Notes under the pieces: generated by a model
What the model was told of the DNA's origin: nothing
Databases searched by the model: none
What the model saw: the letters and a program-made list of their open reading frames with translations, nothing else
Assembly (NCBI GenBank): GCA_963575745.1
Contig: CAUYUJ010000018.1
Span: forward strand, 1 to 64,000
Direction: 5' to 3'
Length of the DNA: 64,000 nt
DNA from: Prorocentrum cordatum
Lineage: Eukaryota
Translations under genes and position numbers: made by a program
Shown: one piece after another, positions 1,933-48,541 of the stretch
How positions within the stretch are numbered: position 1 is the first letter of the stretch
How the letters are laid out: every line of letters begins with the position of its first letter

Positions 1933-4900
1933 CTACAGCCACCTGGTGCGCGACTGCACCCGCAAGTCGCCCTGCGCGCGGAGCTCCGCGGCCCACTCGA
2001 CGCCCTCCGTGGCGAGGGCGTCGGCGCCGCTGTTGAGTCTGCGGCGGACGGCCTGGAACTCGAGAACCCAGCCCTCGGCCGCAAGAGGCGCCAAGCCCTC
2101 CTCGATCTCGGCCTGGAGCTCCAGCCGCCGAAACCGGCCAGTGCCGGCGCCGTAGCGGATCGCCGCCGTGTTGTCGCCGGCCACGCGGGCGCGGCGGAAG
2201 GGCAAGGCCAGGCCCCGCAGCAGGCCGAGGCCGTGGCGACATCCGACGGCCTCCGCGGGTTGCGAGCCAGGTCCGGCTGGAAGTGCCACTACCACCTCCG
2301 CCACTCTGGTAGGGGCGCCTCCGGCGAGGTGGTGGCGCCAGAGGATGGCGCCCGCTCCGCTCGCTTCCTCGCCGTCGAACCGCCGCGAGCCGCCATCGAA
2401 GGTGACCTCCAGGGGCCATGTCGCATCCTCGTGGGCTGGCGACGGCGACCACGCCACAGTCACCTCTTCGTCGGGCAGAAGGCGCTGACCAGCTCTCAGG
2501 CACGCCCGGGAGCAGCGGCAGTGAGGGCAGTGCTGGACCGACCACTCCGCGGTGGCCAACGCCGGAGGGACACGACGAGGCCGGGGCCACCAGCCGGCGC
2601 CTGCTGGAATCCAAGCTGCAGGGCTGCTATCGGCCGTGAGGCATCCGAGGAGGTCGCCGGGCGCGGCAGAGCGCCGGGCCACCGCACGTCGAACCATGGC
2701 GCCGCCTCCACGGTCCTCGCGCGCCAGCGCGGCAGGGACCGCCGAAGAACGCATCCCGAGGGCGGGGGCCGCAATCGCCGCGCAGTCCGGACAGGACGGA
2801 TCGGGCGGGCCCCAGGCGTCTGGGCAAAGGCCGGCTGGCTGCCGAGCTGGGCCCGGCTGCGCGTGAGTGGCCGCGGCGCCGTCGCCCGCGTCGGGGTCAT
2901 CGAGGTCGTCGTCGTCGCTGTTGTCCGCGTTGCCGCGCGCGCTGGTGGCCGCGAAAGCCCGGACCAGCCGCCGTGCCGCGTCCGGACTCTGGAGAGTGGC
3001 CCTGCCAAGCAGCGACATGTAGTGGAAGACCAGCTGGTGAGTGAAGGCGGCCACTGGCTGGGCCAGGTCGCCGGGCGCGCGCAGCGCCTCGCCGAAGGCG
3101 GGAGCATCGGCGGCAGGGAACAACCGGCGCCACGCGAGCGCCACGGCCGGGCACCAATGCCAGAGGTGCTCTGCTCCGGCCTCCCCGGCGCCGCAGAGCG
3201 GGCACGAACCGTAACCGCTGGGGCCCCAGGCGTCCGGTGGAGCGAGGCGGGGCCGCGCGGCCTGGAGACGCGCCGCGTCGGCGCGGAGCTCCTCCGGCAG
3301 CAGATGCAGCGGGCGGGCAGCCCATGCGTGCCCGTCGGCCCACGGCCCGAAGCAGTCCGCACACCACTCCAGCGCGGGCTGCCCGCTGTGAGCGGTCCGC
3401 CAAGCGTGGCAGGCTGGTCGGGCGCACACGCAGCACAGCCGGGGCGGGCGCTCGTCCGAAGGCCGCCACCGAGCCGCCCCGGGCAGGCCGTTTGCCAAGA
3501 AACGCAAGATGTGGAAGGCCGCCGTGTAGCTCCGGGCCACTCCGAGGAGCACCCACTCGTCACCGAGGCTGGGCGCCCACCGTCGCGTTGTGGAGCGCTC
3601 CAGTAGCCAGTCCCCGAGGCACCGAGCGCGGGCGGCCGCCCAGGCCGCCACGTAGAGCGCTCGGCCGAGGCGGGCGGCGCGAAGGCGCGGCTGTGGCCAA
3701 AGCCGCGCGCCGGCGGCGCGGCGGAGCTGGAGCGCCGCGTCTGCGAGGCCGAGCGGGCCCCCGCGCGGCCGCGGGGCAAGCGGCGCCGGCTGGGGTTGCT
3801 GAGCCCACTGCTGGAGGCGGCCCCACCACCACCCAAGCTCCTCGCGCAGCGGGCGGGGGGCCCAAGCGTCGCGCCGCACCGAAGCCAACGCCGCAGTGGC
3901 ACGGGCGGCGGCCACCGGGCATCTCGGCGCCCCGCGGGCTCCGCAGTAGGGGCCGATTCCTGTGGCCACCCACGTGGGACACCAGCGCGTGCCTGCGATG
4001 CGGAGCGCCGTGGCCATCGCATGGGTCGCGGCGGACTCGTCCGCCGGCAAGGGGAGCCCGACGTGCGTGGGGTATTCCGTCAATGGTGCGGCGTAGGAAT
4101 TCCAAGCCGCCGCGCGGCGTCCGGGGGAGCCGACCGCCCCGCCAAGGGCGGCGCCCCGCTCGCGAAGTCGGCCGGAGGCGCGGCGCCAAGAACCCTGCCG
4201 CACCGCCGCAAGGGCGCCCGCGGACCACCCCCTCGGTGCGCCAGCCGCCAGTGCGCGCGAGCCCAAGGCCGCGCCCAAGTACGGCGAGGCCGGGCGCGCG
4301 GCGGCGCGGCCGAAGGGCGACGCCGCCATGCAGGTGGCCCAGCGGTCCAGGTGTGCGGCTGGCACCAATGCTGTCTTCACAGAGCAACCGCACGCGCGCC
4401 CGAGGATTCGCCAGCCACGGACCGCGTCTTCCCCGCATCGGTGCGCCAGAACGTCCCGGACCAGCTCTGGAATCAGGCCGGTGATGTGCAAGTCGCCGCC
4501 GTTGTCCACCATGCTGACGGGGAGGTCCGCGCACGTCCGCCGCACCGCCAAAGGAGCCCCCGGCAGTACCAGGAGCGCGCAGGAGTGCGCCTCGACACAC
4601 AGGCCGGCCACCCAGGAAGCGTACACCAGGTAGAAGGACACCCGCAGGGCCTGGCGGGGTCCCACCACGAGGCAGGCGGTGTCGTCCATGAAGGTGGGGT
4701 CTGCCACTCCGAGCGCGCGCTGCAGCCCCGCGATGATGGGGTCGTAGCAAACGTTCCACAGGAGGGGCGAGGCGGTGCCGCCCATCCCGATTGATCGTCT
4801 GAGGCGCCTTGGGGGCCCGCCCCGGCCTGCCCGGAGGGCCCGGACGCTGCGGTCCACCACGAGACTTAAGAAGCCGTTGGTGACCCAGGCTGGAAGGCGC

Positions 4901-7494
4901 CATCGCTCGAGCAACTCGCGGAGCCAGGCCCAAGACACCCGTTCGAAGGCCTTTGATTGGTCCGCGCACAATACCGCAGTGGCCAGACGAAGGTCGCCCT
5001 CCTCCACCTCGCCGATATGGCGCTCGATCGCTGGTGCGTCTGGCCCAAGAAGTGCCTGCCAGAGCGGGCCTGGCGGAGAGGCTGGGCGCGGGGCCGGGTC
5101 CTCCAGGTGCCGGAAAGCGGCCGCGATGTTGGGGCCGCACGAGCCGCCCGCGACCGCCGCCTGCCCCTCAGCGAATTGGGCCTCGAGGGCCGGGCCTGCG
5201 GCCGAGGCAAGCGCGGCGCCGTATAGCCTCCGGAAGCAAGTCGGCAGCTGGAGGGGCCGCATGTCGCCCGCTTGCTCCCCATCGGGCTTCTTCAGTATCC
5301 ATATGAGCAAGTCCACCGATGGGCCCAGCACGGTGGGAAGCACTTGCGGCCACAACTGCGCGGCATGGAAGGCCTGTCCCAAAAGCGCAGCCACGAAGCG
5401 GGCGCCGATGTGATAGCACTCGTAAGGCTCAGCGTCCAGGCCGGCGGCGGAGCCGCAGGGCCCAAGCACCAAGGAGGCAAGGCGCCGCCAGCGCGGCCGC
5501 GGGCGTGCTGGCAAGTCCACCGCGCGGTGCAAGAAATAATCATCCAGGAGAGCAGAGGCCCGGGCAGGTGTGGGCGGCGCTGAGCCCCACAGCGGTTCCC
5601 GATTCTCCCAAAGGATCGCCTCCACTTCAGCTGGCTCGTCGTGCCACCGGCCGTGGGCATCGCGGACACCGCGGAGTGAGTGGACGCGGTTGAAAAGCTG
5701 GCGCCCTATGCGGAAGGGCTCAGCGAGCGCGGGCCTGGCCGCCGAAGCGCCGCGCTCCCACGGCCGAAGCCGCACTCGGCGGTGGTGGTGCTGCTCCCGT
5801 TGCCACAAGGCGAGCCATGCGGCAAGCGCCTCCTGGTTCAGCTCGCGGCCGTCCCAACCAAGGGCGCGCATCCACTCGCCAGTAGGTCCAGAAGGCGCAT
5901 GGGTACCACCACGGGCGGCAGCGCGAGCAAGCTCCGTGCCAGGTTCCGGCAGGGGGCGCCGCCTGCGCCAGTCCTCCCACCAGCTGGCCAGCATAGCCGA
6001 GAGGGCGGCACGCCCATACAGCATCAGGGCAGGGAGGACGGGAACCTCCTGGCCGGCGTCGTCGGCATCTTCTCCACCTCTTCTTCCTGCTGCAGCAGCG
6101 CGTCCCCCTCCAGCACCCTCGCCTCCGGGTAGGTCGGCCTCGCTTGCAGGAATCTCCTGGCCGGCGTCGTCGGCATTTCCTCCTCCTCCTCGTCTTCCTC
6201 CTCCTCCACCTCCTCCTCTTCCACGGCGCCTGCGCCCTCGCCCTCCTCCATCCCCTCCAGGCGGGTCAGCTGCACCTTCGCCGTCGGCTCCGGGCGGGCC
6301 GTAGTCTGTGCCGTAGATGTCCGCGTTGAGCCTGTCATGCAACGCGTCCTCCGGGCCCGCCGGTCGGTCTCCCCATGCCGCAGGGCGCAATCCTGAGAGG
6401 TCGACGTCTGGGAGGTCAAACGCTCGCCCCAGCAGCGCGTACCGCCTCCGCAAGTCCATGAAGGCCTCCTGGGGGAGGGCCTTGAACGTGGCCGGCGTGA
6501 GAGCCCGTACCGCCGTACCCTGCTGCACCTCAGGGCCGGCGAGAATAGCGGCATGATCGGAGAGGGGCAATCTCCATACCAACTGTGGTCTCCAGCGCCA
6601 CGCCTCTCGCAGCGGCGCCGCCACGAGATCCAGCTGAGCAGGAGGGCCGCGCGCTCCGCGTCGTGTGACCGCGGCGCCAGTGACTGCGGTGAGGCCGTGT
6701 GCGTGGAGAAGTGCATGAAATTCCGCAGCCAGCTCCTCCTCCCCGTCCCGCGGCTCGTGCAACTGGAAGTTCACATCGCCGCCGAGGTAAGTGGCCACCT
6801 CGGGGGCTGCAGGAAGAGCCGCACGCACGGCCGCCAGGGTGGCGCGCTGTGCGCCCGGCGGCAAGTACAAGGAGACGAAACGGACCAAGGAGCGGGCGAT
6901 GATCGTGTGGACGGCCAATGCACACCCAGGCACTAGCTCCGTAACGGTCGTCGCCTGCAGCGTCGCCGGGAGCAGCACGGCAACGCCGCCGGTAGCTCCG
7001 CCGCCTGGCCCAACCTGTGCCGGAGAAGAGTGGACCGTGGCCGGCGGAAACTGGGCTGCCCACAGCGCCTGCTCTGCTGCGCCCCAGTGCGTCTCCCCGA
7101 GCAGGACGATGCGCCCAGCGTCGAGCCACCCCTGGACCATCCGGCGCTTGGCCGAATTGTTCGTGGCGTGGGGGTCGACCAGCCACCTGATGTTCCAAGC
7201 GGCGAGGCGGAGGCCGGCGCCCGCGCGGTCCTCGCGCAGCGCGGCCAACAGTTGCGAGAGGCCTCGGCCTTCGCAAAGGCGGCCCCATGTGGCGCCCGGC
7301 GGCACCCGGGACCTGTGGAGGAGCAGCCACAAGGCGTTCGCCGAGCGGACCCTCGCTGACACCCCAGCGGCAGCGAGAGCGACCGCAAGCCTGTCCCGGA
7401 CCGCTGCCCAAGCACGCGTGCGGGCCTGGGGCAGTGGGGCGCCCGGAGGCGGCCGCCCGAGGGCGTCCAGGAGGAGGGCGGCGTCCGGATCCAT
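1933..7494 (-). CDS. LINE ORF2 polyprotein (1853 aa from the ATG at 7494): AP endonuclease, reverse transcriptase, Zn knuckle, SET-like segment, RNase H
   Basis: APE about 6541-7205: AWNIRWL, LGETHW, GGVAVLL, SLYLPP, GGDVN, LDLV, SDHAAI. RT about 4270-5460: SAAGLD, MRPLQL, DQSKAFERVSW, GMGGTASPLLW, FMDD, YLG. CPLC..EHLWHWCP about 3148-3205. RNase H about 1960-2410: FDGGSR, GAGAIL, AEAVG, GDN, RRLNSGADALA. Confidence 0.95.
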   Translation of the reverse strand: MDPDAALLLDALGRPPPGAPLPQARTRAWAAVRDRLAVALAAAGVSARVRSANALWLLLHRSRVPPGATWGRLCEGRGLSQLLAALREDRAGAGLRLAAWNIRWLVDPHATNNSAKRRMVQGWLDAGRIVLLGETHWGAAEQALWAAQFPPATVHSSPAQVGPGGGATGGVAVLLPATLQATTVTELVPGCALAVHTIIARSLVRFVSLYLPPGAQRATLAAVRAALPAAPEVATYLGGDVNFQLHEPRDGEEELAAEFHALLHAHGLTAVTGAAVTRRGARGPPAQLDLVAAPLREAWRWRPQLVWRLPLSDHAAILAGPEVQQGTAVRALTPATFKALPQEAFMDLRRRYALLGRAFDLPDVDLSGLRPAAWGDRPAGPEDALHDRLNADIYGTDYGPPGADGEGAADPPGGDGGGRGRRRRGRGGGGGGGRRGGGGNADDAGQEIPASEADLPGGEGAGGGRAAAAGRRGGEDADDAGQEVPVLPALMLYGRAALSAMLASWWEDWRRRRPLPEPGTELARAAARGGTHAPSGPTGEWMRALGWDGRELNQEALAAWLALWQREQHHHRRVRLRPWERGASAARPALAEPFRIGRQLFNRVHSLRGVRDAHGRWHDEPAEVEAILWENREPLWGSAPPTPARASALLDDYFLHRAVDLPARPRPRWRRLASLVLGPCGSAAGLDAEPYECYHIGARFVAALLGQAFHAAQLWPQVLPTVLGPSVDLLIWILKKPDGEQAGDMRPLQLPTCFRRLYGAALASAAGPALEAQFAEGQAAVAGGSCGPNIAAAFRHLEDPAPRPASPPGPLWQALLGPDAPAIERHIGEVEEGDLRLATAVLCADQSKAFERVSWAWLRELLERWRLPAWVTNGFLSLVVDRSVRALRAGRGGPPRRLRRSIGMGGTASPLLWNVCYDPIIAGLQRALGVADPTFMDDTACLVVGPRQALRVSFYLVYASWVAGLCVEAHSCALLVLPGAPLAVRRTCADLPVSMVDNGGDLHITGLIPELVRDVLAHRCGEDAVRGWRILGRACGCSVKTALVPAAHLDRWATCMAASPFGRAAARPASPYLGAALGSRALAAGAPRGWSAGALAAVRQGSWRRASGRLRERGAALGGAVGSPGRRAAAWNSYAAPLTEYPTHVGLPLPADESAATHAMATALRIAGTRWCPTWVATGIGPYCGARGAPRCPVAAARATAALASVRRDAWAPRPLREELGWWWGRLQQWAQQPQPAPLAPRPRGGPLGLADAALQLRRAAGARLWPQPRLRAARLGRALYVAAWAAARARCLGDWLLERSTTRRWAPSLGDEWVLLGVARSYTAAFHILRFLANGLPGAARWRPSDERPPRLCCVCARPACHAWRTAHSGQPALEWCADCFGPWADGHAWAARPLHLLPEELRADAARLQAARPRLAPPDAWGPSGYGSCPLCGAGEAGAEHLWHWCPAVALAWRRLFPAADAPAFGEALRAPGDLAQPVAAFTHQLVFHYMSLLGRATLQSPDAARRLVRAFAATSARGNADNSDDDDLDDPDAGDGAAATHAQPGPARQPAGLCPDAWGPPDPSCPDCAAIAAPALGMRSSAVPAALAREDRGGGAMVRRAVARRSAAPGDLLGCLTADSSPAAWIPAGAGWWPRPRRVPPALATAEWSVQHCPHCRCSRACLRAGQRLLPDEEVTVAWSPSPAHEDATWPLEVTFDGGSRRFDGEEASGAGAILWRHHLAGGAPTRVAEVVVALPAGPGSQPAEAVGCRHGLGLLRGLALPFRRARVAGDNTAAIRYGAGTGRFRRLELQAEIEEGLAPLAAEGWVLEFQAVRRRLNSGADALATEGVEWAAELRAQGDLRVQSRTRWL

Positions 7495-10400
7495 CACTGG
7501 GCGCGGCGGCCGTCTTCGGCCGCTGGGGGGTGAGCTGCAGCAGCGTGCGCAGCACTGGAGGCCGGCAGACCGGCTGCGGCGGGCACCGCGGGTGCGGCGG
7601 CCGGAGCGGATGCAGGACCGTCCTGCGGATGCTCCGCATCAGGTCCGGCCAGGCGCTGGGCGGGTCGCCGTGCGCCAAGCATGTCTCCGACCAGGTCGAG
7701 CGGTACAGGCCACTCGCGCGTGGGGCGGGGTGGGCCAGGAAGGCCGTCCACGTCCGCAGCAAGCCGGCGGTACTGGGAGAGCAACGCGGCTGGCGCGTGG
7801 TACGCCCGCGGATGCCCTGTCCTTCCCTGGAGCCAATCGCGCAGTGGTCCGCGGAGCCGCACCTGCAGGGCGGTCACGTCCAAATGGCTCCCGACCGCAT
7901 CGAACAACTGTCGGGCCTCCAGTCCGAGCCCCGCGAGATAGGGCCCATGGCCCGTGGCAGCCGCGCGCTCTGCGGGGGAGGGCATCCTCACCCCGTGGGC
8001 TGCGCCGTGGGTCTCCACCCAACAAGCGAATCTCTGTGCCTCGAGGTTGTTCTCCAGCGACCTCCCTCCCAGGACGAGCCCGAAGGCGGGGAGGAGGTGC
8101 CTGGGGAGGATGCGGCGGAATCGGGCCGCGACGTCGTTCAGCGTGAGCTGCCGCCAGGGCGCGTCGGCCGCGTATAGCATCGTGCGCGGGTGGTACTGGG
8201 GAGTGCTGTGCCGAATCTGATCCCCGAGCCCTGTGGAACGCGTCATCGGCGCAGTACCTCCATCGTCCCAGTGGGGCGCGAAGCCGCCCTCCCAGGGAGC
8301 CGGCCGGCGGACAGGCGTGAAGCTGGGATCCAGCACGATCGGCAGCGTGCTGAGGTAAAGGCGCCTCCGCGGGAAAGGAGCCCACGCCCTGGAGTCCACC
8401 ACCAGTACGTGTCCACCGTCGTCGAGATCGCCGAGGGCCCTGGTCATCGCCGCCCTATGGAGGGGGTGGGTGGTGGCTGCACTTTCCACCACGGCGTGAA
8501 CGTGACAGTCGGGCCGCAGGCCCTGCAGGCTCCAGACAACCAGCGGTATCGTCCAGAAGAGGTACGAGTCGTCGCCGCATAGGCCCTGGCGGCCTTGGTG
8601 CGGGCCCGCGGCATGCAGCTGCTGGGGAGGGGTGCCGGCGATCACCAGCACTAGGCTGCCTGGCGGGAAGCCCCGGCCGAAGCGGGCCAGCGGAGGGTCC
8701 GCCCCGCGGAAGAGGTCCCAGATGTCGCCAGCGAGCTTGACGTGAGGCGTCGTACCTGTGAGGCGAGCCTGGGTGGCCCAGCTGCGCTCAACCGCCGCGG
8801 CAAGTGTCGCGTCAGCCTCGGCGAAGCCTGACTGGGCTAATCCAGGATGGCGGAAGTCCCGCAAGAGTCCGTCCAACGCCACGCGCGTCATGCCAAGGCT
8901 GTCGAAGAGCGAGAGCAAGCAGACCGGCTGGGCAGGCAACGCGGCGGCCGTGTCGCTGGGCGCCGCGGCCTGAACGGCGGGCTGGTCCAGGAATCCAGCC
9001 CAGCTCTGGAATGCAGGGTCGCCTGGGCCCGTGGGGTCGCGGTCATGTCCAGGTGCCGCCGTTTCCGCTCCCGCCTGCCGGACGCGCATGCGGCGAGGCA
9101 AGGGGGGCCAGGCCCCGTGGGCGACGTCCTCGAGGCCCGGCTCGGCGGGCACAGGGGATCGGCGCCGGACTCCCGCCAGTCGCGGGGCAGGGCCAGCTGA
9201 GCCGCGGCGGCGGGCCGCAGCGCGGGCCCCGGCGCCGCTAGCACCATGTCCGCGCCCTCGGTCGCGGCCCCGGCTGCCGAGGGGCGCCGTCGCAACTGCG
9301 CCGTCCGCGCGGTCCCCGGACGAAGGGGGGGCACCTGGTGCCGCTGCGGCGGGCGCTGCTGGTGTGCCCGGCGTGCTCCGGACGGGGTTCCGTGACGTCG
9401 ATGCTGGTGGTACCGGCGCCGGTGTTGCTGCTGGAGTCGGAGCTACTGGCGCTGACGTCGGTGCCGCTGGTACTGACGTCGGTGCTGCTGGTACTGACGT
9501 CGGTGCTGCTGGTACGGACGTCGGTGCTGCTGGTACTGACGTCGGTGCTGCTGGTACGGACGTCAGTGCTGCTGGTACTGATGTCAGTGCTACTGGTGCT
9601 GACGTCGGTGTTTCTGTTGGAGTCCGAGCTGATGTCAGTGCTGCTGGTGACGGCGGCGCTGGTGCTGGTGCTGGCGTCAGTGTTGCTGCTGGTGCGGGCG
9701 CTGTCGTCCGAGTTGGTGCTGGAGCTGACGCCGGTGCGGCTGCTGGTGCTGGCGTCGGTGCTGAAACCGGTGCCGACGTTGACGTCGGTGCTACTGCGCG
9801 TCCTAGCGCCGGTGCTGCTGCTGTCGGTGGTGCAGCTAGGTCTGGAGCCACCGTCGGTGCTGCTGTGGACGTCGGTGATGCTGCTGGTGCGGACGTCGGT
9901 GCTGCTGCCGGTGCTGGCGCTGACGTCGGTGCTGCTGCTTGCATGGTCGTCGGCGCGGCCGTCTGGCCGGATCCGCCGCCGCCATTGCGGTCACTGCTGA
10001 GGGCCTGACCGTCGCCCGAAAGGTCTGCAACAGCACCAAGATGCAACGCCCTCGCTCCGCCTTGGTGGGCAAGCTGCCCGGGATGCTCTTCTCCGAGGCG
10101 CAAGGGGGCAGTCTGGCCCGGGGCAAACAGCTGCGGCCGCCCTTGTGGCGGCAGTGTCGGGGGGGCCTCGGCGGAGGCGGGGCCGGCCCTGGGCGCGGCA
10201 ACGGCTGCTGGCGCGGGTGCTACTGGCGAGACTGGAAGCACGGGCGCTGGCGCCGCAGCACCAGTTGGCAGCGCGAGCGCGCCCGAAGGGCCGGAGAGCG
10301 ATCCGGTGGCGGGCGCTGCAGGGGGAGCCGTGCCAGCGCTGGAGGCTAGCGCTGCTGCTTGCACGAGTCCATGCTGCGGGCGACCGTTTAGGTAGCCACC

Positions 10401-13238
10401 GCCTGGCGGCGGGGTGGCTCCCGCTGCAGCGTCTGCAGGGGGAGGGGCCGCGGCCGCGGCAGGAACCTGCGCAGTGGAGGGCACGGGGGCGCCGAGGGTG
10501 GCGCCATCAACGTCCATTCCACTGGTCCCTCCAAGCCCGTCCTGCCCGGCCGCGTCGGTGGCGCTCGCTGCTGGCGCCGCCGGCGCCGCTGGGCTCACGC
10601 CAGGTGCCTGGGCAGCGAGCGTCGCGTGAACCAAAGCGTCCAAGGCCGCGCTGGCCTCTGCTGACAGTGCGTAGCTGGTGTGCCCGTGTCTGCGGGCGCT
10701 GGCGGCGTCCTGCACCCGGCTGCCTGGGAGCGGCACGCCTGGCCTCACGCCGCGCCGCCCGTGCTGCCACGGCTCGAAGGGCTGGCGCCGGCGGGCAGGA
10801 CTGCCAATCTGGAGCTCCGTGAGGAGGTCCTCCGCGGCACCGGCGTCCTGTTGCCACAGCTGCGCGATGCCCAACACCTCCAGCAGCCAAGCAACGATCA
10901 GCATCGCCCACTGCCACCTGATTGGGGGTTGCGGGCGCTGGGAAGCCGTGATGTGGGCCACCAGCCAATGCGCCAAGAGATCCGCATATCGGGCCGCTGG
11001 CGTGTCCGCGACTGGCTGAAGCGCGAGCCGGGCGGCCGCCCTGGCTGGGTCCACCAACGCCGACGGGAGAGGGCCTGGTGGAGCTGGTGGATCTCCGAGG
11101 TGCTGTAAACGCTCCCGGAAAGTACGGGGGTCACGAGGCGGGGCGGTAGGAGCTGGTGCTGCAGCTGCCGGCGGCGGCGCCGCCGCGGCTCGCCGGGTCG
11201 CCAGCGCAGGGCCCGAGGGAGGGCGCCGGGCGACCCACACAGGGCCATCGGCCAGCTCCACGTCCACGTGCAGGAATCCATCGAGTTGGTGAGCCGCGGC
11301 CCGGCCGTCAGCCTCGGCGGGGTGCACCACCGCGATCCACGCTGGCAACGTAGGCGTCCACGACAGCTCCTCCCCTGGTGCGCGGAGGCGCAGGCGGCTC
11401 CCCGCGGCGACGCGAACGAGGAGGAGCTCGCCGGGAAGCAGGTGGTCGCTCCAGCCATTGAGGCCCGAGACCCCGCCCTCCTGCCGGAAGGCGGCCCCCG
11501 CCCCCAAAGAGGAGTGGAGAGTCTGCGAAAAGTGGTCCTGGCATCCTAGCGGCAGCGGCGGGGGGCGGGAGGCCGGGCGGGTGGGCTCCGCTGGCACCCA
11601 GAGGCGCGCGTGCACCACGGTCCCGAGGAAGAGCATGCGCGTCCAGACGTCTGCCCAACTGTCCGCATCTGCCTGGCCGCCCGACGGCCATGGGCCCGTC
11701 CGGAACTCCAGCAGCCGGGGCACCGCCGGACCAAGAGCGGCTCCCGAGGGTTCGAGGGGCGTCCTCTGTGCCACCTGCGAGAAAGTGGTGGAGCGCCCTC
11801 CAGCCGCGGCGCCTGGGCGCGACGCGGCCGCCAAGAGCTGGCGAATCGCGTCAGGCGTGCGCGGGGCGCGGTGACCTTGCGTCCGAATGCGGGTCGATCC
11901 AAAAGGAAACGCCCGGCAAGGCACCCCGGCAACCGTCACTTGGCCGCTGCTCCCCACCTGGATGCGCATGCGGTCGGCCGCAGGCGCCGCGACCCGAACA
12001 AGGCTCATGTTGTCGAACCTGTCGGTGGATGGGTCCAGGGCGTTGACTGTCGAGACGTGGACGGGGTGCGCCAGTAGGTCCTGCAGGCGGCGCGCGACGT
12101 CCCCGTCGGAGACCTGGTTTCTGGTGACCACCAGCCAGAGAAGATCATGGCCTGCCGTCGGCCCCGTAGTGGAGAGGAACCCCCGCGGCCTGTGGGCGTC
12201 ACCAGCCCAGAGGATGCGGCTGGCCGGCGCGGCCGGGGAAATCCACTGGTCAAGCTGTGCCGCACGGACCACGCCCTCCGTGACTGCTGGGAGGAGGTCC
12301 AGCAGTAACAGCCCATCGATCCGCGCTGCGACGCGGCCACCCATCTGGAGAGCGGGCTCCTCCGCTGCGGCCACCGCTGCTGGGATGCTGCCGCGGGCCA
12401 TCGGGATGTGCACGGCATGGTGCGTATCTCGATCCCGCCACCAAGTCAAGGTGAAGCCCTGGTGCTGGATGGCTGCGAGAGCACTTCCCAAAGTTGCGAT
12501 GTCTGGGGCCGCTGGCGCTGACGTGACACGGATTGCGTGGTAAAGGAGTGGCGCCACGTGGGACCCCGCCTGGTGTGGATCGCTTCCGGGTCTGAGGGAT
12601 TCGGTGGCCCACTCCATACTCAGGCCACGCGCCCTGGTCGCAGCCTGGAAGCGAAGGAGGGCCGCGTGCACGTGCGGGTCCAGGCCTTCGTGGAGTAGGA
12701 TGTGCAGGCATTCGCTGGCCAGCTCGGCCGCTCCGGCCCAAGTCACGATCGTCTCCACAGGAGGGCGGGCTGGCTCGGGGCGCAAGGGCACCTGGAGGGC
12801 GAAGCACTGCACGGCGCGGCCGCGATCTGTCAGCGGCTGTCCGACCGCTGTCAAATGGGCTGCCATCGCGAGGTTCCGGGCTCCCCACTCGGCATGCGCC
12901 AGAAGACACAAGTCCGTGCCCGTTGCTACGCCCGGCGAGGCAGTCCGCCGGCAAGCGATAGCGAGGATGTCCACCGCTCGGTCGGCAGCGGCCAGCGCGG
13001 CCCGCAGAGCCTGGAGGCCGTCGTGGCGTAATCCTATGGCCAGCAACACCGGGGGGAGGTCGTCGGCTGCCGCGCTGTCGGAGCTCGGCAGACCAGCTGC
13101 GGCAGCGTAGTATGCGTCCCTGCCGTCCTCCAGGCATGGTACGTCGAGGGCGTCCCCGTCCCGCGTGCCCACGAGCGCGTGGGTGCCCGCAGCCACGACC
13201 ATGTAGGGGCTGACCTCCTGCACTGCTACTCGTACCAC
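7494..13238 (-). CDS. LINE ORF1, C-terminal part: possible RRM-like region, Pro/Ala/Thr linker and C-terminal C5 DNA cytosine methyltransferase-like domain (about 7830-8930)
   Basis: Dnmt motifs in correct order: I LSLFDSLG, II FAEAD, III GDIWDL, IV IAGTPPQQL, GLCGDDSYLFW, VI VVESA, VIII DSRAWAPFPRRRLYLSTLP, IX PAERAAATG, X VGSHLDV. Same frame as the upstream 2693-aa ORF. Confidence 0.88.
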   Translation of the reverse strand: MVRVAVQEVSPYMVVAAGTHALVGTRDGDALDVPCLEDGRDAYYAAAAGLPSSDSAAADDLPPVLLAIGLRHDGLQALRAALAAADRAVDILAIACRRTASPGVATGTDLCLLAHAEWGARNLAMAAHLTAVGQPLTDRGRAVQCFALQVPLRPEPARPPVETIVTWAGAAELASECLHILLHEGLDPHVHAALLRFQAATRARGLSMEWATESLRPGSDPHQAGSHVAPLLYHAIRVTSAPAAPDIATLGSALAAIQHQGFTLTWWRDRDTHHAVHIPMARGSIPAAVAAAEEPALQMGGRVAARIDGLLLLDLLPAVTEGVVRAAQLDQWISPAAPASRILWAGDAHRPRGFLSTTGPTAGHDLLWLVVTRNQVSDGDVARRLQDLLAHPVHVSTVNALDPSTDRFDNMSLVRVAAPAADRMRIQVGSSGQVTVAGVPCRAFPFGSTRIRTQGHRAPRTPDAIRQLLAAASRPGAAAGGRSTTFSQVAQRTPLEPSGAALGPAVPRLLEFRTGPWPSGGQADADSWADVWTRMLFLGTVVHARLWVPAEPTRPASRPPPLPLGCQDHFSQTLHSSLGAGAAFRQEGGVSGLNGWSDHLLPGELLLVRVAAGSRLRLRAPGEELSWTPTLPAWIAVVHPAEADGRAAAHQLDGFLHVDVELADGPVWVARRPPSGPALATRRAAAAPPPAAAAPAPTAPPRDPRTFRERLQHLGDPPAPPGPLPSALVDPARAAARLALQPVADTPAARYADLLAHWLVAHITASQRPQPPIRWQWAMLIVAWLLEVLGIAQLWQQDAGAAEDLLTELQIGSPARRRQPFEPWQHGRRGVRPGVPLPGSRVQDAASARRHGHTSYALSAEASAALDALVHATLAAQAPGVSPAAPAAPAASATDAAGQDGLGGTSGMDVDGATLGAPVPSTAQVPAAAAAPPPADAAAGATPPPGGGYLNGRPQHGLVQAAALASSAGTAPPAAPATGSLSGPSGALALPTGAAAPAPVLPVSPVAPAPAAVAAPRAGPASAEAPPTLPPQGRPQLFAPGQTAPLRLGEEHPGQLAHQGGARALHLGAVADLSGDGQALSSDRNGGGGSGQTAAPTTMQAAAPTSAPAPAAAPTSAPAASPTSTAAPTVAPDLAAPPTAAAPALGRAVAPTSTSAPVSAPTPAPAAAPASAPAPTRTTAPAPAATLTPAPAPAPPSPAALTSARTPTETPTSAPVALTSVPAALTSVPAAPTSVPAAPTSVPAAPTSVPAAPTSVPAAPTSAPVAPTPAATPAPVPPASTSRNPVRSTPGTPAAPAAAAPGAPPSSGDRADGAVATAPLGSRGRDRGRGHGASGAGARAAARRRGSAGPAPRLAGVRRRSPVPAEPGLEDVAHGAWPPLPRRMRVRQAGAETAAPGHDRDPTGPGDPAFQSWAGFLDQPAVQAAAPSDTAAALPAQPVCLLSLFDSLGMTRVALDGLLRDFRHPGLAQSGFAEADATLAAAVERSWATQARLTGTTPHVKLAGDIWDLFRGADPPLARFGRGFPPGSLVLVIAGTPPQQLHAAGPHQGRQGLCGDDSYLFWTIPLVVWSLQGLRPDCHVHAVVESAATTHPLHRAAMTRALGDLDDGGHVLVVDSRAWAPFPRRRLYLSTLPIVLDPSFTPVRRPAPWEGGFAPHWDDGGTAPMTRSTGLGDQIRHSTPQYHPRTMLYAADAPWRQLTLNDVAARFRRILPRHLLPAFGLVLGGRSLENNLEAQRFACWVETHGAAHGVRMPSPAERAAATGHGPYLAGLGLEARQLFDAVGSHLDVTALQVRLRGPLRDWLQGRTGHPRAYHAPAALLSQYRRLAADVDGLPGPPRPTREWPVPLDLVGDMLGARRPAQRLAGPDAEHPQDGPASAPAAAPAVPAAAGLPASSAAHAAAAHPPAAEDGRRAQ

Positions 13239-13271
13239 TTCCGGTGGGAGGCGGGTTCGGCCTTCGCCCGG

Positions 13272-16200
13272 TCAGGTAAGGCTGGTCAGCCTCATCAGCA
13301 AGCGGGCCCATGCCCCCGACGTGACCAGGGGCGCCTCGCCGCCAGGGCACGGGGATGGTTGTGTCGGCGCCGTGGCCGAAGCGGACGGCGGGCCAGGCGG
13401 GGGAGAGCCTGGCGGCGGCGCGGCTCCTCGGGGGGCTGCAGGTACTGGTACTGAAGTCGGTGCTACTGCTGGAGTCGGAGCTACTGGTCCTGACGTCGGT
13501 GCTGCTGTTGCTGGCGTCGGTGCTACTGGAACTGACGTCGGTCCTACTGGCACTGACGTTAGTGCTGCTGCTGCAGTCGGAGCTACTGGTACTGCCGCCG
13601 GTGCTGCTGGTACTGCCGTCGATGCTTCTGGTCCTGACGTCGGTGCTTCTGGTGCTGGCGCCGGTGCTGCTGGGAGGAACGTCGGTGCTACTGGTACTGA
13701 CGTCGATGCTGCTGCTGGAGTCGGAGCTACTGGTACTACCGTCGGTGCTGCTGGTAGGGACGTCGGTGCTGCTGGTACGGGCGTCGGTGCTGCTGGTACT
13801 GACGTCGATGCTGCTGCTGGAGTCTGAGCTACTGGTACTGACGCCAGTGCTGCTGGTACTGCCGTCGGTGCTTCTGGTGCTGACGTCGGAGCTACTGGTA
13901 CTGACGTCGGTGCTGCTGGAGCTGACGTCGGTGCTACTGGTAATGCCGTCGGTGCTACTGGAACTGCCGTCGGCGCTGCTGCTGTAGGCGGAGCTACCGG
14001 TACTGACATCGGTGCTGCTGGTACTAACGTCGGTGCTAGTGGTACTGACGCCGGTGCTGCTGGTACTGACGCAGGTGCTGCTGGTACTGCCGCCAGTGCT
14101 GCCGGTACTGACGTCGTTGCTGCGGCCGGAGTCCGAGCTACTGGTACTGACGCTGGCGCTGCTGGTAGGGACGTGGGTGCTGCTGGTAAGGACGTCGGTG
14201 CTGCTGGTACAGACGTCGGCGCTGCTGCTGGAGTCGGAGCTAATGGTACGGACGTCGATGCTGCTGGTACTGACGCCGGTGCTACTGATACTGACGTCTG
14301 TGCTACTGGCACTGACGTCGGTGCTACTGGCACTGTCGTCGGTGCTGCTGCTAGAGTCGGAGCTGATGCCATTGCTGCTGTTGACGTCGCCGCTGGTGCT
14401 GTCGTCTGTGCTGTTGCTGGTGCGGGCGCTGCCGTCGGAGCTGGTGCTTGCGTCGGTGCCGCTGTTGACGTCGGTGCTGCTGCTGGAGATGGAGCTGACG
14501 TCAGTACTGCAGCTGACGTCGGTGCTGCTGCTGGTGCTGGCGTCGGTGCTGAAGCCGGTGCCGACGCTGACGTCGGTGCTTGTGCGCGTCCTAGCGCCGG
14601 TGCTGCTGTTGACGTCGGTGCTGCAGCTAGGTCTTGAGCTGGCGTCGGTGCTGCTGTGGACGTCGGTGATGCTGCTGGTGCGGACGCCGGTGCTGCTGCC
14701 GGTACTAGCGCTGACGTCGGGGTTGCTGCTGCTGGTATGGCCGTCGGTGCGGCTGTTGAGGTCAGTGCTGCTGCTGTTGATGCTGTCGGCTGCGACGCTG
14801 TTCCTGCGGGCGTGGGCCTCGATGCTGTCGCCGGGCGCGCCCCCTGCTGGTAGCCCTCGATGGCGGCGAAATCGTTGCCTGCCGCCAGACTTTGCGATGG
14901 GGCTTGGCCCGGCTCTGCCGCGCGATCGGAGGCCGCGGAGGCCGGTGGGCCCTCAGGGGCGCCGCCGACAAGGCCTGGCCGAGACGGCCTCGTGCCACCT
15001 TGCTCCACGTCTCTGAGGGCCGCGGCGGCGGCAGGCGATGCAGCAGCTGTCCCCGGTTCGGGGCCCGTCGGGATTGCTGGCGCCACACTGTCGGTGGCCG
15101 TGATGCCGTCGCCGCCCAGGTCTGCTACTAGCGCTGGCTCCGACGCCGGACCTCTGGACCCCTGGGCCGTCGGATGCGCGCCAGGCAGGCGGTCGTCCAT
15201 GGAGTCGCCGGACGATCTGCCTGCCGCTACGGGGGAGGTCTCCAGGCCGCTCGTCGCCGCCTGGTCGTGGTCGTTGCTCGACTCCGCGGCTGCTGCACGC
15301 TGGGCGACGCCGCCCTGACCTGCCTCGTTCGCAACTGCCCGAGATTCGGGGAATGCCAGCCCATCCTCGTCGCGGGCGGCTGAGGGTTCCGGCTGTGATG
15401 CTGCCGCGTCTGGCATCGGCGGGTCGCCGTCAAGCTCAGCCCATGGCAAACGGCAGGCGGGGCAATACACAGGGAACCATTCGTGCGGTCGGACGCGCGG
15501 CGGCGGTGGAACGCCTGCTCGCTGCCTCCGCCACTCCTGCATGCAAGCGGCGTGCATGCGGTGCCCGCACCCCGGCCATCTCGTACCATCGCCGTCGCCA
15601 AAGGGCTCCAGGCAGACCGTGCAGTGCTCGTTCCCTCGCGCCAGGCTTGTGCCCGCCTCTTCGCTGGTGGAAGCTTGGTGCCGCCGTAGGGCGGTTTGCC
15701 CCGCCGACAGAGCCGTGAATAAGTCGAGATCGAGATACGTCGTCTGAAGCAACTCCGCGATCTGGCCAGGGCACAGCGGGTCGTAGGGCTCGACCTGGAT
15801 CCGCGAGACCGCGCTCAACATTCGCGCGAGCCCGGCTGGGGTGAAGCACCCTTGCTCGGCGAACCACTCCGCCAGATCCCGGAAGGGCTGGGCGTTGGTC
15901 GCCGACCGCACGAGGGCCGGGAGGAGCTGCTGGGACAAGTGGCACGGCAAGGTTACCCAAATGGCCTGCGCGAGCCAAGAGGCTATGTCGGTGGTGCCTC
16001 GCGCCAGCAAGGGGGCCTCGCCTGCCTCACCAGATAGGAGTCTGGTGATTTCGGCCGCCCTCGCGTTGTCCACCGAGGCGTCCGTGAGCATCTGGCTGCG
16101 CGCCCGAGCCGCTGCCGGGTTAGGCTCTTGGACCTGCATCTCTGGCGGAAGCTGCCGGAGCTCGGCGTCGTTCAGGGCGTCCTCGTCCGAGTCGGAATCG

Positions 16201-19200: not shown

Positions 19201-21353
19201 GGAGTCGGTGCCGGCGTCGTTGCTGGCGTCGATGTTGGCAGCGTCGGTGCCAGACTCGGTGCTAAGATCGGTGCCGGTGTCGGTCCCAGGGTTGTAGCTG
19301 GCGTCGGTGCTGGAGTCGGTGCCGGCGTCGATGCTGCTGGCGTCGGTGCTGGCGCCGGAGCTGCTGGCGTCGGTGCCGTTGCTGGTGCCGGGGCCGCTGC
19401 CAGCACCGGTGCCGGCGTCGATACTGCTGGCGTCGATGCCGCAGTCGTGGCCGTCGCCGATGCGGCTGGCATCGTCGGTGGAGTCGGAGTCGGTGCCGGC
19501 GTCGTTGCTGGCGTCGATGTTGCTGGCGTCGGGGCCAGACTCGGTGCTAAGATCCGTGCCGGTGCCGGTCCCAAGGTGGCTGCTGGTGGCGTCGGTGCCG
19601 GAATCGGTGCCGGCGTCGGTGCTGGCGCGTCGACGCTGCCAGCCTCGGTGCCGGCCTCTATGCTGCTGTCGTCTGTGCCGGAGTCAGCGCCAGTGTCGAC
19701 GGAGCTGGCGTTGGCGACGGAATCGGTGCCAGCGTCGATCCTGCTGGCGTCGGCGCAGGAGTCGGTGCCAACGTCTGTGCTGGCGTCGGCGTCAGAGTCC
19801 CTCTTGGCGTCGATGCCGCTGGCGCCAGTACCAGACCAGGCGTCGGTGCTGGCGTCGATGCTGCTGGCCAGCGCGGACAGAATATCGCAGCCAGACGGCA
19901 CCTGGCGGTCGTCGTACAAGTCCTGCCCGTCGCGAGCATCGTGCCTCGCACCGTCGCTAAAGCTCTTTCTGGTGGTACGGCCAGAGGCGTCGGTGATGCT
20001 GTGGGCACTGGTGTGGGAGGTGCTGGCGCCTGTGATGCTGGCGTCGATGTTGGAATCGGTGCAACCATCGATGCTGCTGACATCGGTGCTGGAATCGGTA
20101 CTGGTGCCGGTGCCGACGCCGATGCCGCTGGCGTCTATGCCGGATCCGAACCTGGCGTCAATGCCGATGGCGCCGGTGCCAAAGTCAGTGCTAGAGTTGG
20201 TGCCAGAGTCAGTGCTGGCGTCGATGCTGCTGGTGTCGGTGCCAGAGTCGGTGCAGGTCACGGAACTGCTGGCGTCGGTGCCGTAATTGAGTCTGGCGTC
20301 GGTGCCAGCGTCGATGATGCTGGCGTCGGTGCCGGTGTCGGGGCCTGCGTCGGTGCTGGCGTCGCTGCTGCTGGCGTCGGTGCCAGCGTCGGTGTCGGCG
20401 TCGATGCTGCTGGTGTCGGTGCTGGCTTCGGAGCTGCTGGCGTCGGTGCCGCCGGTGTCAGTGCCGGAGCCGCTGCCAGCACCAGTGCCGGAGACGATGC
20501 TGCTGGCGTCGATGCAACAGCCGCTGCCGTCGCCGATGCGGCTGGGGTCGTCGGTGGCGTCGGAGTCGGTGCCGGCGTCGTTGCTGGCGTCGATGTTGGC
20601 AGCGTCGGTGCCAGCCTCGGTGCTAAGATCGGTGCCGGTGTCGGTCCCAGGGTTGTTGCTGGCGTCGGTGCCGGAGTCGGTGCCGGCGTCGGCGCCGGCG
20701 TCGATACTGGCAGCCTCGGTTCTGGCCTCGGTGCCGGCGTCGTTGCTGCTGTCGTCGGTGCTGAAGTCAGCGCCAGTGTCGATGGAGCTGGTGTTGGCGC
20801 CGGAAGTGGTGCCGGCGTCGATCCTGCTGGCGTCGGCGCAGGAGTCAATGCCAACGTCTGTACTGGCGTCGGTGCCGGGATCTCTGTTGGCGCCGATGCC
20901 GCTGGCGCCAATACCAGACCAGGCGTCGGTCCTGGCGTCGATGCTGCTGGCCCTCGCGGACAGTATAGCGCAGCCCGGCGGAACCTGACGGTCGTCGTAC
21001 AAGTCGAGCAAATCGTGAGCATCGTGCTCGATGCGGAAGCGATGAACCTGCGACGGCACGGAGATCAGGCCCAGCGCAACGGGGATCGCGCCCAGCACAA
21101 CAGAGTCGTGTTGTGAAAGTTTGTCGTCGCGCTGGGAGCGGTGGTGCTGCTGGCCACTGTCGACTCGGTCAAGTGGCCTATGCGAGATGCTGCTGAGCGG
21201 GTCTCCTTGGGCCTTGTGGTCGCCGCTGTCTCCCTGGCTGCTGTTCGGTTCACCGCGGTGCTCCGGGCCACCGCCGCGCGCGGCCGTCGTGCAGGTCGCC
21301 GTGCGAGTTGTGATTGCGCTGCTGGCTACTGTGCTCTTGTGAACTGCCGTCAC
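13272..21353 (-). CDS. LINE ORF1, middle part: low-complexity repeats, actin relics, ubiquitin domain (18036-18260), RING-H2 finger (about 15450-15625)
   Basis: MEVFVTT...[36 protein letters not shown] (ubiquitin); [19 protein letters not shown] (C3H2C3 RING); [27 protein letters not shown] (actin-like). Confidence 0.82.
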
Positions 21354-42325: not shown

Positions 42326-42393
42326 CTGCCTGCCCCCAATACCCATCTGTGAGTTCGTACCAATACCGGCACGCGCAGACCATGGTGGGGGAC

Positions 42394-45300: not shown

Positions 45301-45554
45301 AAATTCGCGCACCCGTGACTCTCGATATCCTGGACGCTCTGCAGGGACGTCAACCTCTGCGCGGGGTGGCGCAGCCACTGCTGCAAATTGTAAGGCCGCA
45401 TGGCGACGTGGAACTCCCTCTTGAGGTCTTTGCTGATGTCGTAAGCCGACATGTTGTCGCACGTGTACTTGCGCACGATCAGCTCGCGGTGGGCATTCCA
45501 GAAAGCCGCCCCGACGTGAACGACATGCGCCGTACCGTGATGATCATACCAAGT
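42394..45554 (-). CDS. RepHel predicted exon 2: Helitron Rep (HUH endonuclease) domain
   Basis: AFRWLVKNNGFY and ECAAWPWLYP (typical pre-Rep blocks); motif 1 PNLFITIAP; motif 2 EYQGRGTPHWHI; motif 3 YINGYCTK; CPCC/CGKC cysteine pairs. Confidence 0.92.
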
Positions 45555-48352: not shown

Positions 48353-48374
48353 AGAGCCAGAACCAGAACCAGAA

Positions 48375-48405
<31 letters not shown>

Positions 48406-48505: not shown

Positions 48506-48541
<36 letters not shown>

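What the first reader, a model, noticed from the sequence alone, without database searches (positions are those of the whole stretch)
7830..8930. Retrotransposon Dnmt domain looks like a maintained pseudoenzyme
Seen: motifs are present and ordered, but four key positions are changed: FDG to FDS (motif I), catalytic PC to PP (codon CCC at 8625-8627, two changes from a Cys codon), EN to ES (motif VI) and GN to GS (motif X). The frame stays open. Known: C5-MTases need the motif IV Cys. Inference: a catalytically dead DNA-binding or decoy domain, analogous to DNMT3L, unlike an active retrotransposon Dnmt. Simple decay of this one copy is the alternative.
Basis: partly seen in the sequence, partly recalled or inferred. 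Interest (0 to 1): 0.75.

Follow-up and report, generated by a model that had tools for sequence, protein, structure and literature searches.

The report
Dead methyltransferase domain in dinoflagellate LINE
A jumping gene of a dinoflagellate carries a DNA-methyltransferase-like domain that has lost its catalytic cysteine yet still looks conserved, which hints that the domain serves the element by something other than methylating.

Summary
On the minus strand, 7740-8960 encodes the C-terminal domain of a 1925-codon ORF1. A TGATG stop/start overlap joins it to a LINE ORF2 with endonuclease and reverse transcriptase. The sequence alone hits no methylase model. It belongs to a large family (465 clusters) whose profile matches DRM and DNMT3A, and its AlphaFold model (pLDDT 94.7) matches DNMT3A/B/C.

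The wider family keeps FDG, PC, EN and GN (Cys in 103 of 108 representatives). The window has FDS, PP (CCC, 8625-8627), ES and GS. These changes are not private to this copy:
- P0005/P0162 (88% identical) share PP and ES.
- P0157 (73%) shares FDS.
- P0155 (93%) shares GS.

Differences among these copies avoid family-conserved positions (stratified permutation p=5e-5). The domain diverges about 3 times more slowly than the adjacent tail. The lineage is not accelerated on the family tree.

My reading is a C5-methylation-dead but selectively maintained DNMT fold in LINE ORF1, probably a nucleic-acid-binding or RNP module. Codon-level dN/dS could not be run because no relatives' DNA was obtainable. 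The DNMT3L analogy is untested, and the anatomy differs from DNMT3L. GN to GS is weak evidence, because intact relatives also carry GS. This is a new variant of a known kind (SymbioLINE-Dnmt-like).

The parts
7740..8960 (-). DNMT3/DRM-like C5-methyltransferase fold domain (P0004, 407 aa) at the C-terminus of ORF1. It lacks the catalytic Cys.
   Evidence: Family of 465 clusters. Family profile vs PDB: DRM 1.5e-8, DNMT3A 2e-3. AF2 with a 146-sequence alignment: pLDDT 94.7, pTM 0.92. Foldseek top hits are DNMT3A/B/C, E about 2e-11, TM-score by target up to 0.77. ESM Atlas: 29 of 30 nearest clusters are in the PF00145 set.
8898..8900 (-). Motif I: codon AGC (Ser21) where the family has Gly (FDG to FDS).
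   Evidence: (G in 61 of 64). Shared with P0157.
8625..8627 (-). Motif IV: codon CCC (Pro112) where the family has the catalytic Cys (PC to PP).
   Evidence: (C in 103 of 108). Shared with P0005 and P0162.
8481..8486 (-). Motif VI: GAA AGT (Glu159-Ser160); the family has Glu-Asn.
   Evidence: (N in 88 of 109; E in 103 of 109). ES is shared with P0005 and P0162.
7887..7892 (-). Motif X: GGG AGC (Gly357-Ser358); the family has Gly-Asn.
   Evidence: (N in 51 of 65). P0155 has GS; P0005 and P0162 have GG. GS also occurs in PC-intact P0010 and P0159.
8070..8294 (-). Residues 223-297 of the domain, between motifs VIII and IX (the target-recognition-like region). This is a stretch with no difference between the window copy and P0005.
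   Evidence: Differing positions jump from 222 to 298. In windows 234-293, 0 differences were observed against 8.0 expected from a conservation-based logistic model.
7494..13271 (-). ORF1 reading frame (1925 codons, stop TGA at 7494-7496). It has an N-terminal region shared with another family member, a Pro/Ala/Thr-rich linker, then the DNMT-like domain.
   Evidence: Residues 111-687 and 766-863 match P0159 (27% over 627 aa, E=2e-19). The linker 9394-9959 is repeated at 13446-14753.
7492..7496 (-). TGATG: the ORF1 stop codon overlaps the first ATG of ORF2 by one base.
   Evidence: P0005 and P0155 end with the same last residues, AEDGRR(A/D)Q.
1933..7494 (-). LINE ORF2: apurinic-type endonuclease (about 6553-7200), reverse transcriptase (about 4642-4992, FMDD present) and a weak RNase H-like C-terminus.
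   Evidence: Pfam Exo_endo_phos 1.7e-7 and RVT_1 6.4e-9. RVT_3 (RNase H-like) only E=0.088. Open for 1901 codons.

Best explanation
The window holds an intact-looking LINE retrotransposon. The identical NCBI protein is named as from Prorocentrum cordatum. ORF1 ends in a DNMT3/DRM-type C5-methyltransferase fold. In this sub-lineage of the element the fold has lost the nucleophilic Cys (PC to PP) and has altered motifs I and VI, so it cannot carry out C5-methyl transfer by the known mechanism. The rest of the fold has stayed under purifying selection while the sub-lineage diversified. I therefore infer that the domain has a non-catalytic job needed in cis by the element. The most likely job is binding the element's RNA or target/cDNA as part of the ORF1 ribonucleoprotein, using the conserved region between motifs VIII and IX. 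Any methylation, if it matters, would be supplied in trans by catalytically intact sister elements. Shown: homology, fold, loss of key residues, sharing of the losses among copies, and a constraint pattern at the protein level. Inferred: that selection acts at the level of the element, and the nucleic-acid-binding role.
For: Architecture: ORF1 (7494-13271), a TGATG junction, then ORF2 with Exo_endo_phos and RVT_1. This is the same layout as the published SymbioLINE-Dnmt (PMC5890265, section 6 read).
Homology and fold.
Loss of Cys: the family has Cys in 103 of 108 representatives, and the window has CCC Pro.
Not a private decay: of the sub-lineage sequences that cover each motif, 3 of 3 have PP and ES (P0004, P0005, P0162), 2 of 2 have FDS (P0004, P0157), and 0 of 4 have GN.
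Constraint after the loss:
- Differences between the window copy and P0005 fall on 30 of 126 low-, 10 of 127 mid- and 7 of 126 high-conservation columns (one-sided MWU p=7.6e-5). For P0155 the counts are 10 of 56, 0 of 55 and 0 of 56. For P0157 they are 15 of 32, 8 of 31 and 2 of 32.
- The pattern survives permutation within residue types (0 of 20000 permutations reached it).
- The domain differs at 47 of 383 sites against 17 of 49 in the adjacent C-terminal tail (p=1.7e-4). For P0155 it is 11 of 169 against 9 of 49 (p=0.02).
- The window copy deviates at 12 of 79 family-conserved columns (15%), close to the family median of 13%.
- Its root-to-tip length is the third shortest of 31 on a midpoint-rooted tree.
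- 3 of the 4 nucleotide variants shown for the domain in other runs' contigs are synonymous.
Cofactor-pocket and base-pocket residues other than those named are kept: F19, G23, E48, D79, W81, E159, R198, R200.
Published context: the tested SymbioLINE-Dnmt did not methylate DNA de novo in yeast, and an RNA-directed role was proposed (PMC5890265, Discussion passage seen).
Against: No codon-level dN/dS was possible, because DNA of the relatives could not be obtained, so selection is inferred from protein patterns only.
The sub-lineage sample is small: four sequences besides the window, two of them near-identical to each other, and only P0005/P0162 cover motif IV.
It is unknown whether the relatives are paralogous copies in one genome or copies in other species.
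Most of the family keeps the catalytic residues, which argues that catalysis normally matters. A dead lineage may therefore be short-lived.
One laid contig of a ~91%-identical copy carries a 35-base deletion within the domain (8087-8121), so some copies do decay.
The AF2 model rests on an alignment dominated by intact members and does not prove that this sequence folds.
No expression evidence was obtained.
The nucleic-acid-binding role is an inference with no direct test here.
Confidence: 0.55

Rival explanations
1. Recent inactivation, now drifting. A master copy lost Cys shortly before a last burst of transposition. The copies seen are relics of a lineage on its way to extinction, and the domain has no retained function.
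For: The wider family overwhelmingly keeps Cys (103 of 108). Other Cys-less representatives also lack EN (4 of 4), and one of them, P0063, is the most deviant member at 34% of conserved columns. A laid contig of a related copy has a frame-breaking 35-base deletion. The crown divergence of sequences known to carry PP is only 12%.
Against: Neutral decay after insertion should spread differences evenly, yet they avoid family-conserved columns and the domain changes about 3 times more slowly than its tail. There is no rate acceleration on the tree. The catalytic codon is two substitutions from Cys, so the loss is not very recent. FDS is shared with a copy only 73% identical. ORF1 and ORF2 are open over 11.5 kb.
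Confidence: 0.2
2. DNMT3L-like accessory or decoy. The dead domain heteromerises with catalytically active DNMT-ORF1 proteins of sister elements, or with host DNMTs, and stimulates, redirects or blocks them.
For: The fold is DNMT3-type. DNMT3 enzymes work as oligomers with inactive partners such as DNMT3L and DNMT3B3; entry titles show such complexes, and the mechanism is my recollection. Intact relatives exist in the same family.
Against: No interaction test was run. By my recollection DNMT3L has lost motifs IX-X and the target-recognition part, whereas here these are kept and the region between motifs VIII and IX is the best conserved. That pattern fits substrate binding better than a pure partner role. 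It is not known that intact members occur in the same genome.
Confidence: 0.12
3. Host-domesticated gene. The locus is no longer a mobile element but an exapted host gene, and the constraint reflects host-level selection.
For: NCBI annotates a gene model across the domain (P0158). Constraint signals are present.
Against: The gene model merely splices the end of ORF1 to the start of ORF2. ORF2 keeps endonuclease and RT with an FMDD box, and the TGATG coupling is kept. Many contigs 80-95% identical to this stretch were laid from other runs, as expected for a repeat family.
Confidence: 0.08
4. Still an enzyme. The domain methylates, or performs other chemistry on, DNA or RNA using another nucleophile.
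For: Putative SAM-pocket residues are mostly kept, as are the motif VI Glu and the motif VIII Arg pair.
Against: Known C5-methyltransferases need the motif IV Cys; RNA m5C enzymes use a motif VI Cys instead (recalled knowledge). Here motif IV is PP and motif VI is VVESAA with no Cys.
Confidence: 0.04

Closest known systems
SymbioLINE-Dnmt retrotransposons of Symbiodiniaceae (de Mendoza et al. 2018, PMC5890265)
   Same: A LINE with a DNMT domain in ORF1 upstream of an ORF2 carrying Exo_endo_phos, RVT_1 and RNase_H, in a dinoflagellate host (paper section 6; window).
   Different: The paper reports conserved key catalytic positions in its retrotransposon DNMTs, whereas this sub-lineage lacks them. 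By the NCBI name, the host here is Prorocentrum, not Symbiodiniaceae. ORF1 here is very long (1925 codons). Whether the DNMT clade is the same was not tested, because no SymbioLINE sequence was on hand. The paper's supplementary figures were not seen.
DNMT3A/3B/3C and plant DRM catalytic domains
   Same: Best structural matches and best profile matches, with the same motif order I, IV, VI, VIII, IX, X.
   Different: About 13-14% identity. The catalytic Cys is replaced by Pro, the motif I Gly by Ser, and the motif VI Asn by Ser. The domain sits in a LINE ORF1 and not in a host chromatin enzyme.
DNMT3L and DNMT3B3 (inactive DNMT3 paralogues that partner active enzymes)
   Same: A DNMT3-type fold without catalytic competence that is nevertheless retained.
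   Different: By my recollection DNMT3L lacks the C-terminal motifs and the DNA-recognition region and does not bind SAM. Here the full scaffold is kept. Partner binding was not tested. This one is encoded by a mobile element.
Other Cys-less members of the same family (P0025, P0030, P0056, P0063, P0113)
   Same: They have lost the motif IV Cys (Arg, Ala or Leu instead), and the 4 that also cover motif VI have lost EN too.
   Different: They are independent lineages at about 30-40% identity. At least P0063 (34%) and P0030 (23%) deviate more at conserved columns than the window copy (15%).

Membership tests
C5 cytosine methyltransferase superfamily (PF00145-type) | Methyltransferase fold with motifs in the order I, IV, VI, VIII, IX, X | tested here: met
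   Family profile vs PDB: DRM 1.5e-8, DNMT3A 2e-3. AF2 pLDDT 94.7. Foldseek DNMT3A/B/C E about 2e-11. However, Pfam finds nothing for the window sequence and matches only 2 of 24 family members at E<=0.01.
C5 cytosine methyltransferase superfamily (PF00145-type) | Catalytic Pro-Cys in motif IV | tested here: not met
   The window has Pro-Pro, CCT CCC at 8625-8630. The family has Cys in 103 of 108.
C5 cytosine methyltransferase superfamily (PF00145-type) | Glu-Asn-Val-type motif VI | tested here: not met
   Glu159 is kept, but Asn is replaced by Ser160. The family has N in 88 of 109.
C5 cytosine methyltransferase superfamily (PF00145-type) | F-x-G-x-G cofactor loop (motif I) | tested here: not met
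   The window has F-D-S-L-G. The first Gly is Ser21 (the family has G in 61 of 64); the second Gly is kept.
C5 cytosine methyltransferase superfamily (PF00145-type) | Methyl transfer to cytosine C5 | not testable with these tools
   This needs an in vitro assay.
SymbioLINE-Dnmt-type element | DNMT domain in ORF1 upstream of a LINE ORF2 (endonuclease, RT, RNase H) | tested here: met
   The RNase H part is only weakly supported (RVT_3, E=0.088).
SymbioLINE-Dnmt-type element | DNMT belongs to the same clade as the published SymbioLINE DNMTs | not tested
SymbioLINE-Dnmt-type element | Key catalytic positions conserved (as reported for the published elements) | tested here: not met
   against the statement in PMC5890265 section 6.
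DNMT3L-like inactive partner | Inactive DNMT3-type fold | tested here: met
DNMT3L-like inactive partner | Binds and modulates an active DNMT | not tested
   No partner from the same genome was identified, and no complex prediction was run.

The most novel reading that the evidence does not exclude
A LINE lineage has turned its captured DNA methyltransferase into a non-catalytic nucleic-acid-binding ORF1 module and keeps transposing. In effect it is a 'cheater' that retains the private structural role of the domain while leaving methylation to intact sister elements. This would mean that the DNMT fold in dinoflagellate LINEs is needed mainly for RNP assembly or target binding and not for methylation.
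Probability: 0.4. Interest if true: 0.7.

Novelty: new variant of a known kind. Interest (0 to 1): 0.55.

Why it matters
It is unresolved why dinoflagellate LINEs carry a DNMT in ORF1. The one SymbioLINE-Dnmt tested did not methylate DNA in yeast (PMC5890265, passage seen). A lineage that has lost the nucleophile but still keeps the fold under constraint is a natural separation-of-function mutant. It predicts that the domain has a binding or assembly role independent of catalysis, and it offers a sequence for testing that role. It also places DNMT-bearing LINEs outside Symbiodiniaceae, if the NCBI organism name is right. My searches found no paper describing DNMT-LINEs in Prorocentrum or inactive retrotransposon DNMT lineages, but subscription journals and supplements were not covered.

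Tried and rejected
- Single-sequence searches found no methylase: Pfam and PDB phmmer.
- Single-sequence AF2 gave pLDDT 34 and was unusable.
- No whole genome is held for the window, so family copies in the genome could not be collected.
- A scan of metagenome contigs with the protein gave 484 pattern matches, none confirmed.
- A degenerate DNA pattern for AGTPPQQLH gave 10 stretches in metagenome contigs and 7 in genome contigs. All matched only the peptide itself by tblastn (best E=0.06), so they are chance hits.
- The search for homologous proteins for shorter and longer proteins added only P0157 and the window's own gene model P0158 to the sub-lineage.
- Cluster look-ups gave no organism names.
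- Sequencing runs: no RNA holder was listed.
- Contigs of 4 runs were laid, but only 40 of 653 variant rows were printed. Nothing could be read at codon 8625-8627, and no dN/dS could be derived.
- The earlier-findings index returned nothing for three look-ups.
- The C-terminus of ORF2 gave no PDB match and only a weak RVT_3 hit.
- Complex prediction was not run. No partner from the same genome is known, and a DNMT3-like pair would tend to pass simply by likeness to solved structures.
Full report
**What is in the sequence**

The first 24 kb of the window are about 70% G+C. Three very long minus-strand frames lie there: 13272-21509, 7494-13271 and 1933-7638. They have 2745, 1925 and 1901 codons. 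The next longest stop-to-stop ORF in 1-20 kb has 900 codons.

The 1933-7638 frame carries Pfam Exo_endo_phos (E=1.7e-7) and RVT_1 (E=6.4e-9), with an FMDD box. Its C-terminus has a weak RNase H-like match (RVT_3, E=0.088). This is a LINE ORF2.

The 7494-13271 frame ends in TGA. That stop overlaps the first ATG of ORF2 as TGATG at 7492-7496. The finding's interval therefore lies in the C-terminal part of a LINE ORF1.

An NCBI protein identical to this stretch is named 'unnamed protein product, partial [Prorocentrum cordatum]' (P0158). That gene model simply splices the end of ORF1 to the start of ORF2.

**Checking the observation**

Translation of 7740-8960 (P0004, 407 aa) reads:
- LFDSLG
- AGTPPQQL
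- VVES
- VGSHLD

The codons are AGC 8898-8900, CCT CCC 8625-8630, GAA AGT 8481-8486 and GGG AGC 7887-7892.

The single sequence is not recognised as a methylase by Pfam or by PDB sequence search.

**It is a real, divergent DNMT family**

An exhaustive HMMER search found 465 clusters at E<=1e-3, of which 43 were at E<=1e-30. Several results place the family among the C5-methyltransferases:
- An alignment of 24 members has the consensus LFDGxG, AGSPCQQLT, VHxxxENA and GNHFDP.
- Its profile hits solved DRM methyltransferases (E=1.5e-8 to 7.5e-7), DNMT3A (2e-3) and, faintly, M.HhaI. The family's FDGxG and SPC align on the DRM motifs.
- Only 2 of the 24 members reach PF00145 at E<=0.01, so the family is far from the Pfam model.
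- With a 146-sequence alignment, AlphaFold gave pLDDT 94.7 and pTM 0.92. Without an alignment the pLDDT was 34.
- Foldseek's listed top matches are all DNMT3A, DNMT3B or DNMT3C catalytic domains (best E=2.4e-11, TM-score by target 0.77).
- The protein language-model atlas points the same way: 29 of 30 nearest clusters are in the PF00145 set.

The model mostly reflects the family alignment. It does not prove that this particular sequence folds.

**The changes against the family**

I took the 153 family sequences outside the window's sub-lineage and counted the conserved residue among those that cover each column:

| Column | Residue | Count |
|---|---|---|
| Motif I | first Gly | 61 of 64 |
| Motif IV | Cys | 103 of 108 |
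| Motif VI | Glu | 103 of 109 |
| Motif VI | Asn | 88 of 109 |
| Motif X | Asn | 51 of 65 |

The window copy has Ser, Pro, Glu, Ser and Ser at these columns.

Two nuances apply:
- GS at motif X also occurs in P0010 and P0159, which keep PC and EN. That change says little about activity.
- The window copy deviates at 12 of 79 family-conserved columns. These include R243T, R334A, W227F and T116H.

Residues that by position belong to the cofactor and base pockets are kept: F19, G23, E48, D79, W81, E159, R198 and R200. Assigning them to those pockets is my own inference from the motif order.

**It is not a private decay of this copy**

The closest relatives in the protein collections share the changes:
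- P0005 and its near-twin P0162 (88% identical) have AGTPPQQLH and VVES, with GG at motif X.
- P0155 (93% identical, C-terminal half only) has GS.
- P0157 (73% identical over the first 97 residues) has LFDSLGM.

The changes therefore predate the divergence of these copies.

That does not show that only this copy decayed, because a sub-lineage carries the changes.

**Is the dead domain maintained?**

I could not obtain DNA of the relatives. No genome is held, and the contig scans gave only chance hits. The laid contigs were printed only in part. Codon-level dN/dS was therefore not computed.

Five indirect protein-level tests were possible, and all point the same way.

*Test 1: where the differences fall.* Differences within the sub-lineage avoid columns that are conserved in the intact family:

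| Compared with window copy | Low tercile | Mid tercile | High tercile |
|---|---|---|---|
| P0005 | 30 of 126 | 10 of 127 | 7 of 126 |
| P0155 | 10 of 56 | 0 of 55 | 0 of 56 |
| P0157 | 15 of 32 | 8 of 31 | 2 of 32 |

For P0005 the one-sided MWU p is 7.6e-5. Over all 399 columns, 72 are variable. Their mean conservation is 0.317, against a null of 0.445 +/- 0.024 when labels are permuted within residue types. None of 20000 permutations reached the observed value.

*Test 2: domain against tail.* The domain differs from P0005 at 47 of 383 sites, and the Ala/Pro-rich tail just after it at 17 of 49 (p=1.7e-4). For P0155 the figures are 11 of 169 and 9 of 49 (p=0.02). Low-complexity tails may evolve faster than neutral, so this is only a rough yardstick.

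*Test 3: overall deviation.* The copy's deviation rate at conserved columns (15%) is close to the family median (13%, 43 other members).

*Test 4: branch length.* On a midpoint-rooted tree of the 31 members that cover at least 300 columns, the copy's root-to-tip length is the third shortest (1.33; range 1.26-2.06). Its sister clades keep PC.

*Test 5: nucleotide variants.* Only four nucleotide variants were printed for the domain from other runs' contigs. Three are synonymous and one is Thr137Ala. This sample is too small to carry weight.

**Evidence against maintenance**
- One laid contig of a ~91%-identical copy has a 35-base deletion at 8087-8121, so some copies do decay.
- Other Cys-less family members exist. 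The 4 that also cover motif VI lack EN too (Fisher p=0.0018).
- At least one of them, P0063, looks generally degraded, deviating at 34% of conserved columns.

**An unexplained detail**

Between residues 223 and 297 (8070-8294) the window copy and P0005 show no difference, where about 8 are expected. This region lies between motifs VIII and IX, where C5-methyltransferases carry their target-recognition part (recalled).

The same stretch is also the least diverged at the DNA level in a contig from another organism. That contig shows 6 differences in 166 bases here, against 26 in 297 and 31 in 326 nearby.

Strong constraint on substrate binding would explain this. Recombination between copies would too.

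**How it most likely works**

The nucleophile is gone, so C5-methyl transfer by the known mechanism is excluded. This step rests on established enzymology, which I recall and did not test.

The fold, the putative pockets and above all the recognition-like region remain constrained, in an element whose ORF2 and ORF1-ORF2 junction look intact. The simplest reading is that the domain serves the element as a binding or assembly module of the ORF1 ribonucleoprotein.

This fits the published observation that a SymbioLINE-Dnmt did not methylate DNA in yeast, and the authors' suggestion of an RNA-directed role (PMC5890265, Discussion passage). If methylation benefits these elements, intact sister elements could supply it in trans.

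A DNMT3L-like partner role remains possible but untested. It fits the retained recognition region less well.

**Comparison and novelty**

The architecture equals the published SymbioLINE-Dnmt (PMC5890265, section 6 read). That paper states that key DNMT residues are conserved in its elements and reports Ka/Ks below 0.2 (passages seen; supplements not seen).

What is new here is a sub-lineage without the catalytic residues that still shows constraint, and a host outside Symbiodiniaceae.

My literature searches found no description of either:
- One search returned 2 papers.
- One search returned 11 papers with 'symbioline', several of them unrelated.
- One search listed 10 of 47 papers.

One Prorocentrum paper only cites the 2018 work (passages). 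Two later papers mention SymbioLINE in passing (passages).

I rate this a new variant of a known kind, of moderate interest. The central claim awaits a codon-level test that is easy to run once the genome's copies are in hand.

Noticed in passing
window 13272-21509 (-): A 2745-codon frame lies directly upstream of ORF1, in the same frame and separated from it only by one TGA at 13272-13274. It encodes a ubiquitin domain (PF00240, 9.8e-15), a RING finger below the Pfam cut-off (zf-RING_2, 26.9 bits against 27.3) and long acidic and Pro/Ala/Thr-rich repeats. Whether it is part of the element (read-through), another element or a host gene was not resolved.
   Followed up: partly
window 9394-9959 and 13446-14753: The Pro/Ala/Thr-rich linker of ORF1 is about 81% identical at the DNA level to a stretch of the upstream frame, where it is expanded into a longer array.
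   Followed up: partly
window 7492-7496 (-): There is a TGATG stop/start overlap between ORF1 and ORF2. This arrangement is compatible with termination-reinitiation. The last ORF1 residues are the same in P0005 and P0155.
   Followed up: partly
window 9960-12940 (-), ORF1 residues 111-863: The N-terminal part of ORF1 has no Pfam match. It is homologous to the N-terminal part of another family member, P0159 (27% over 627 aa, E=2e-19), so long ORF1s with a shared unknown region occur in this family.
   Followed up: partly
window 40009-42522 (-) and 42195-45578 (-): An 838-codon ORF has AAA_30 and AAA_19 helicase-type ATPase domains (4e-12). It lies next to a 1128-codon ORF with no Pfam match. 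This could be another mobile element or a helicase gene.
   Followed up: no
window 48000-53000: This stretch has extreme AT skew (up to 0.80). ORFs there in both orientations match only repetitive Glu/Pro-type models such as Trypan_PARP, so it is a low-complexity repeat block.
   Followed up: no
window 8087-8121: One contig of run X10 (kind guessed as RNA) that is ~91% identical to the domain skips 35 bases here. This would break the frame in that copy.
   Followed up: no
window 7497-9100 / P0158: The public gene model for this locus joins the ORF1 C-terminus to the ORF2 endonuclease through a predicted intron, giving a 756-aa 'protein' that is probably an annotation artefact of the two-ORF element.
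   Followed up: partly
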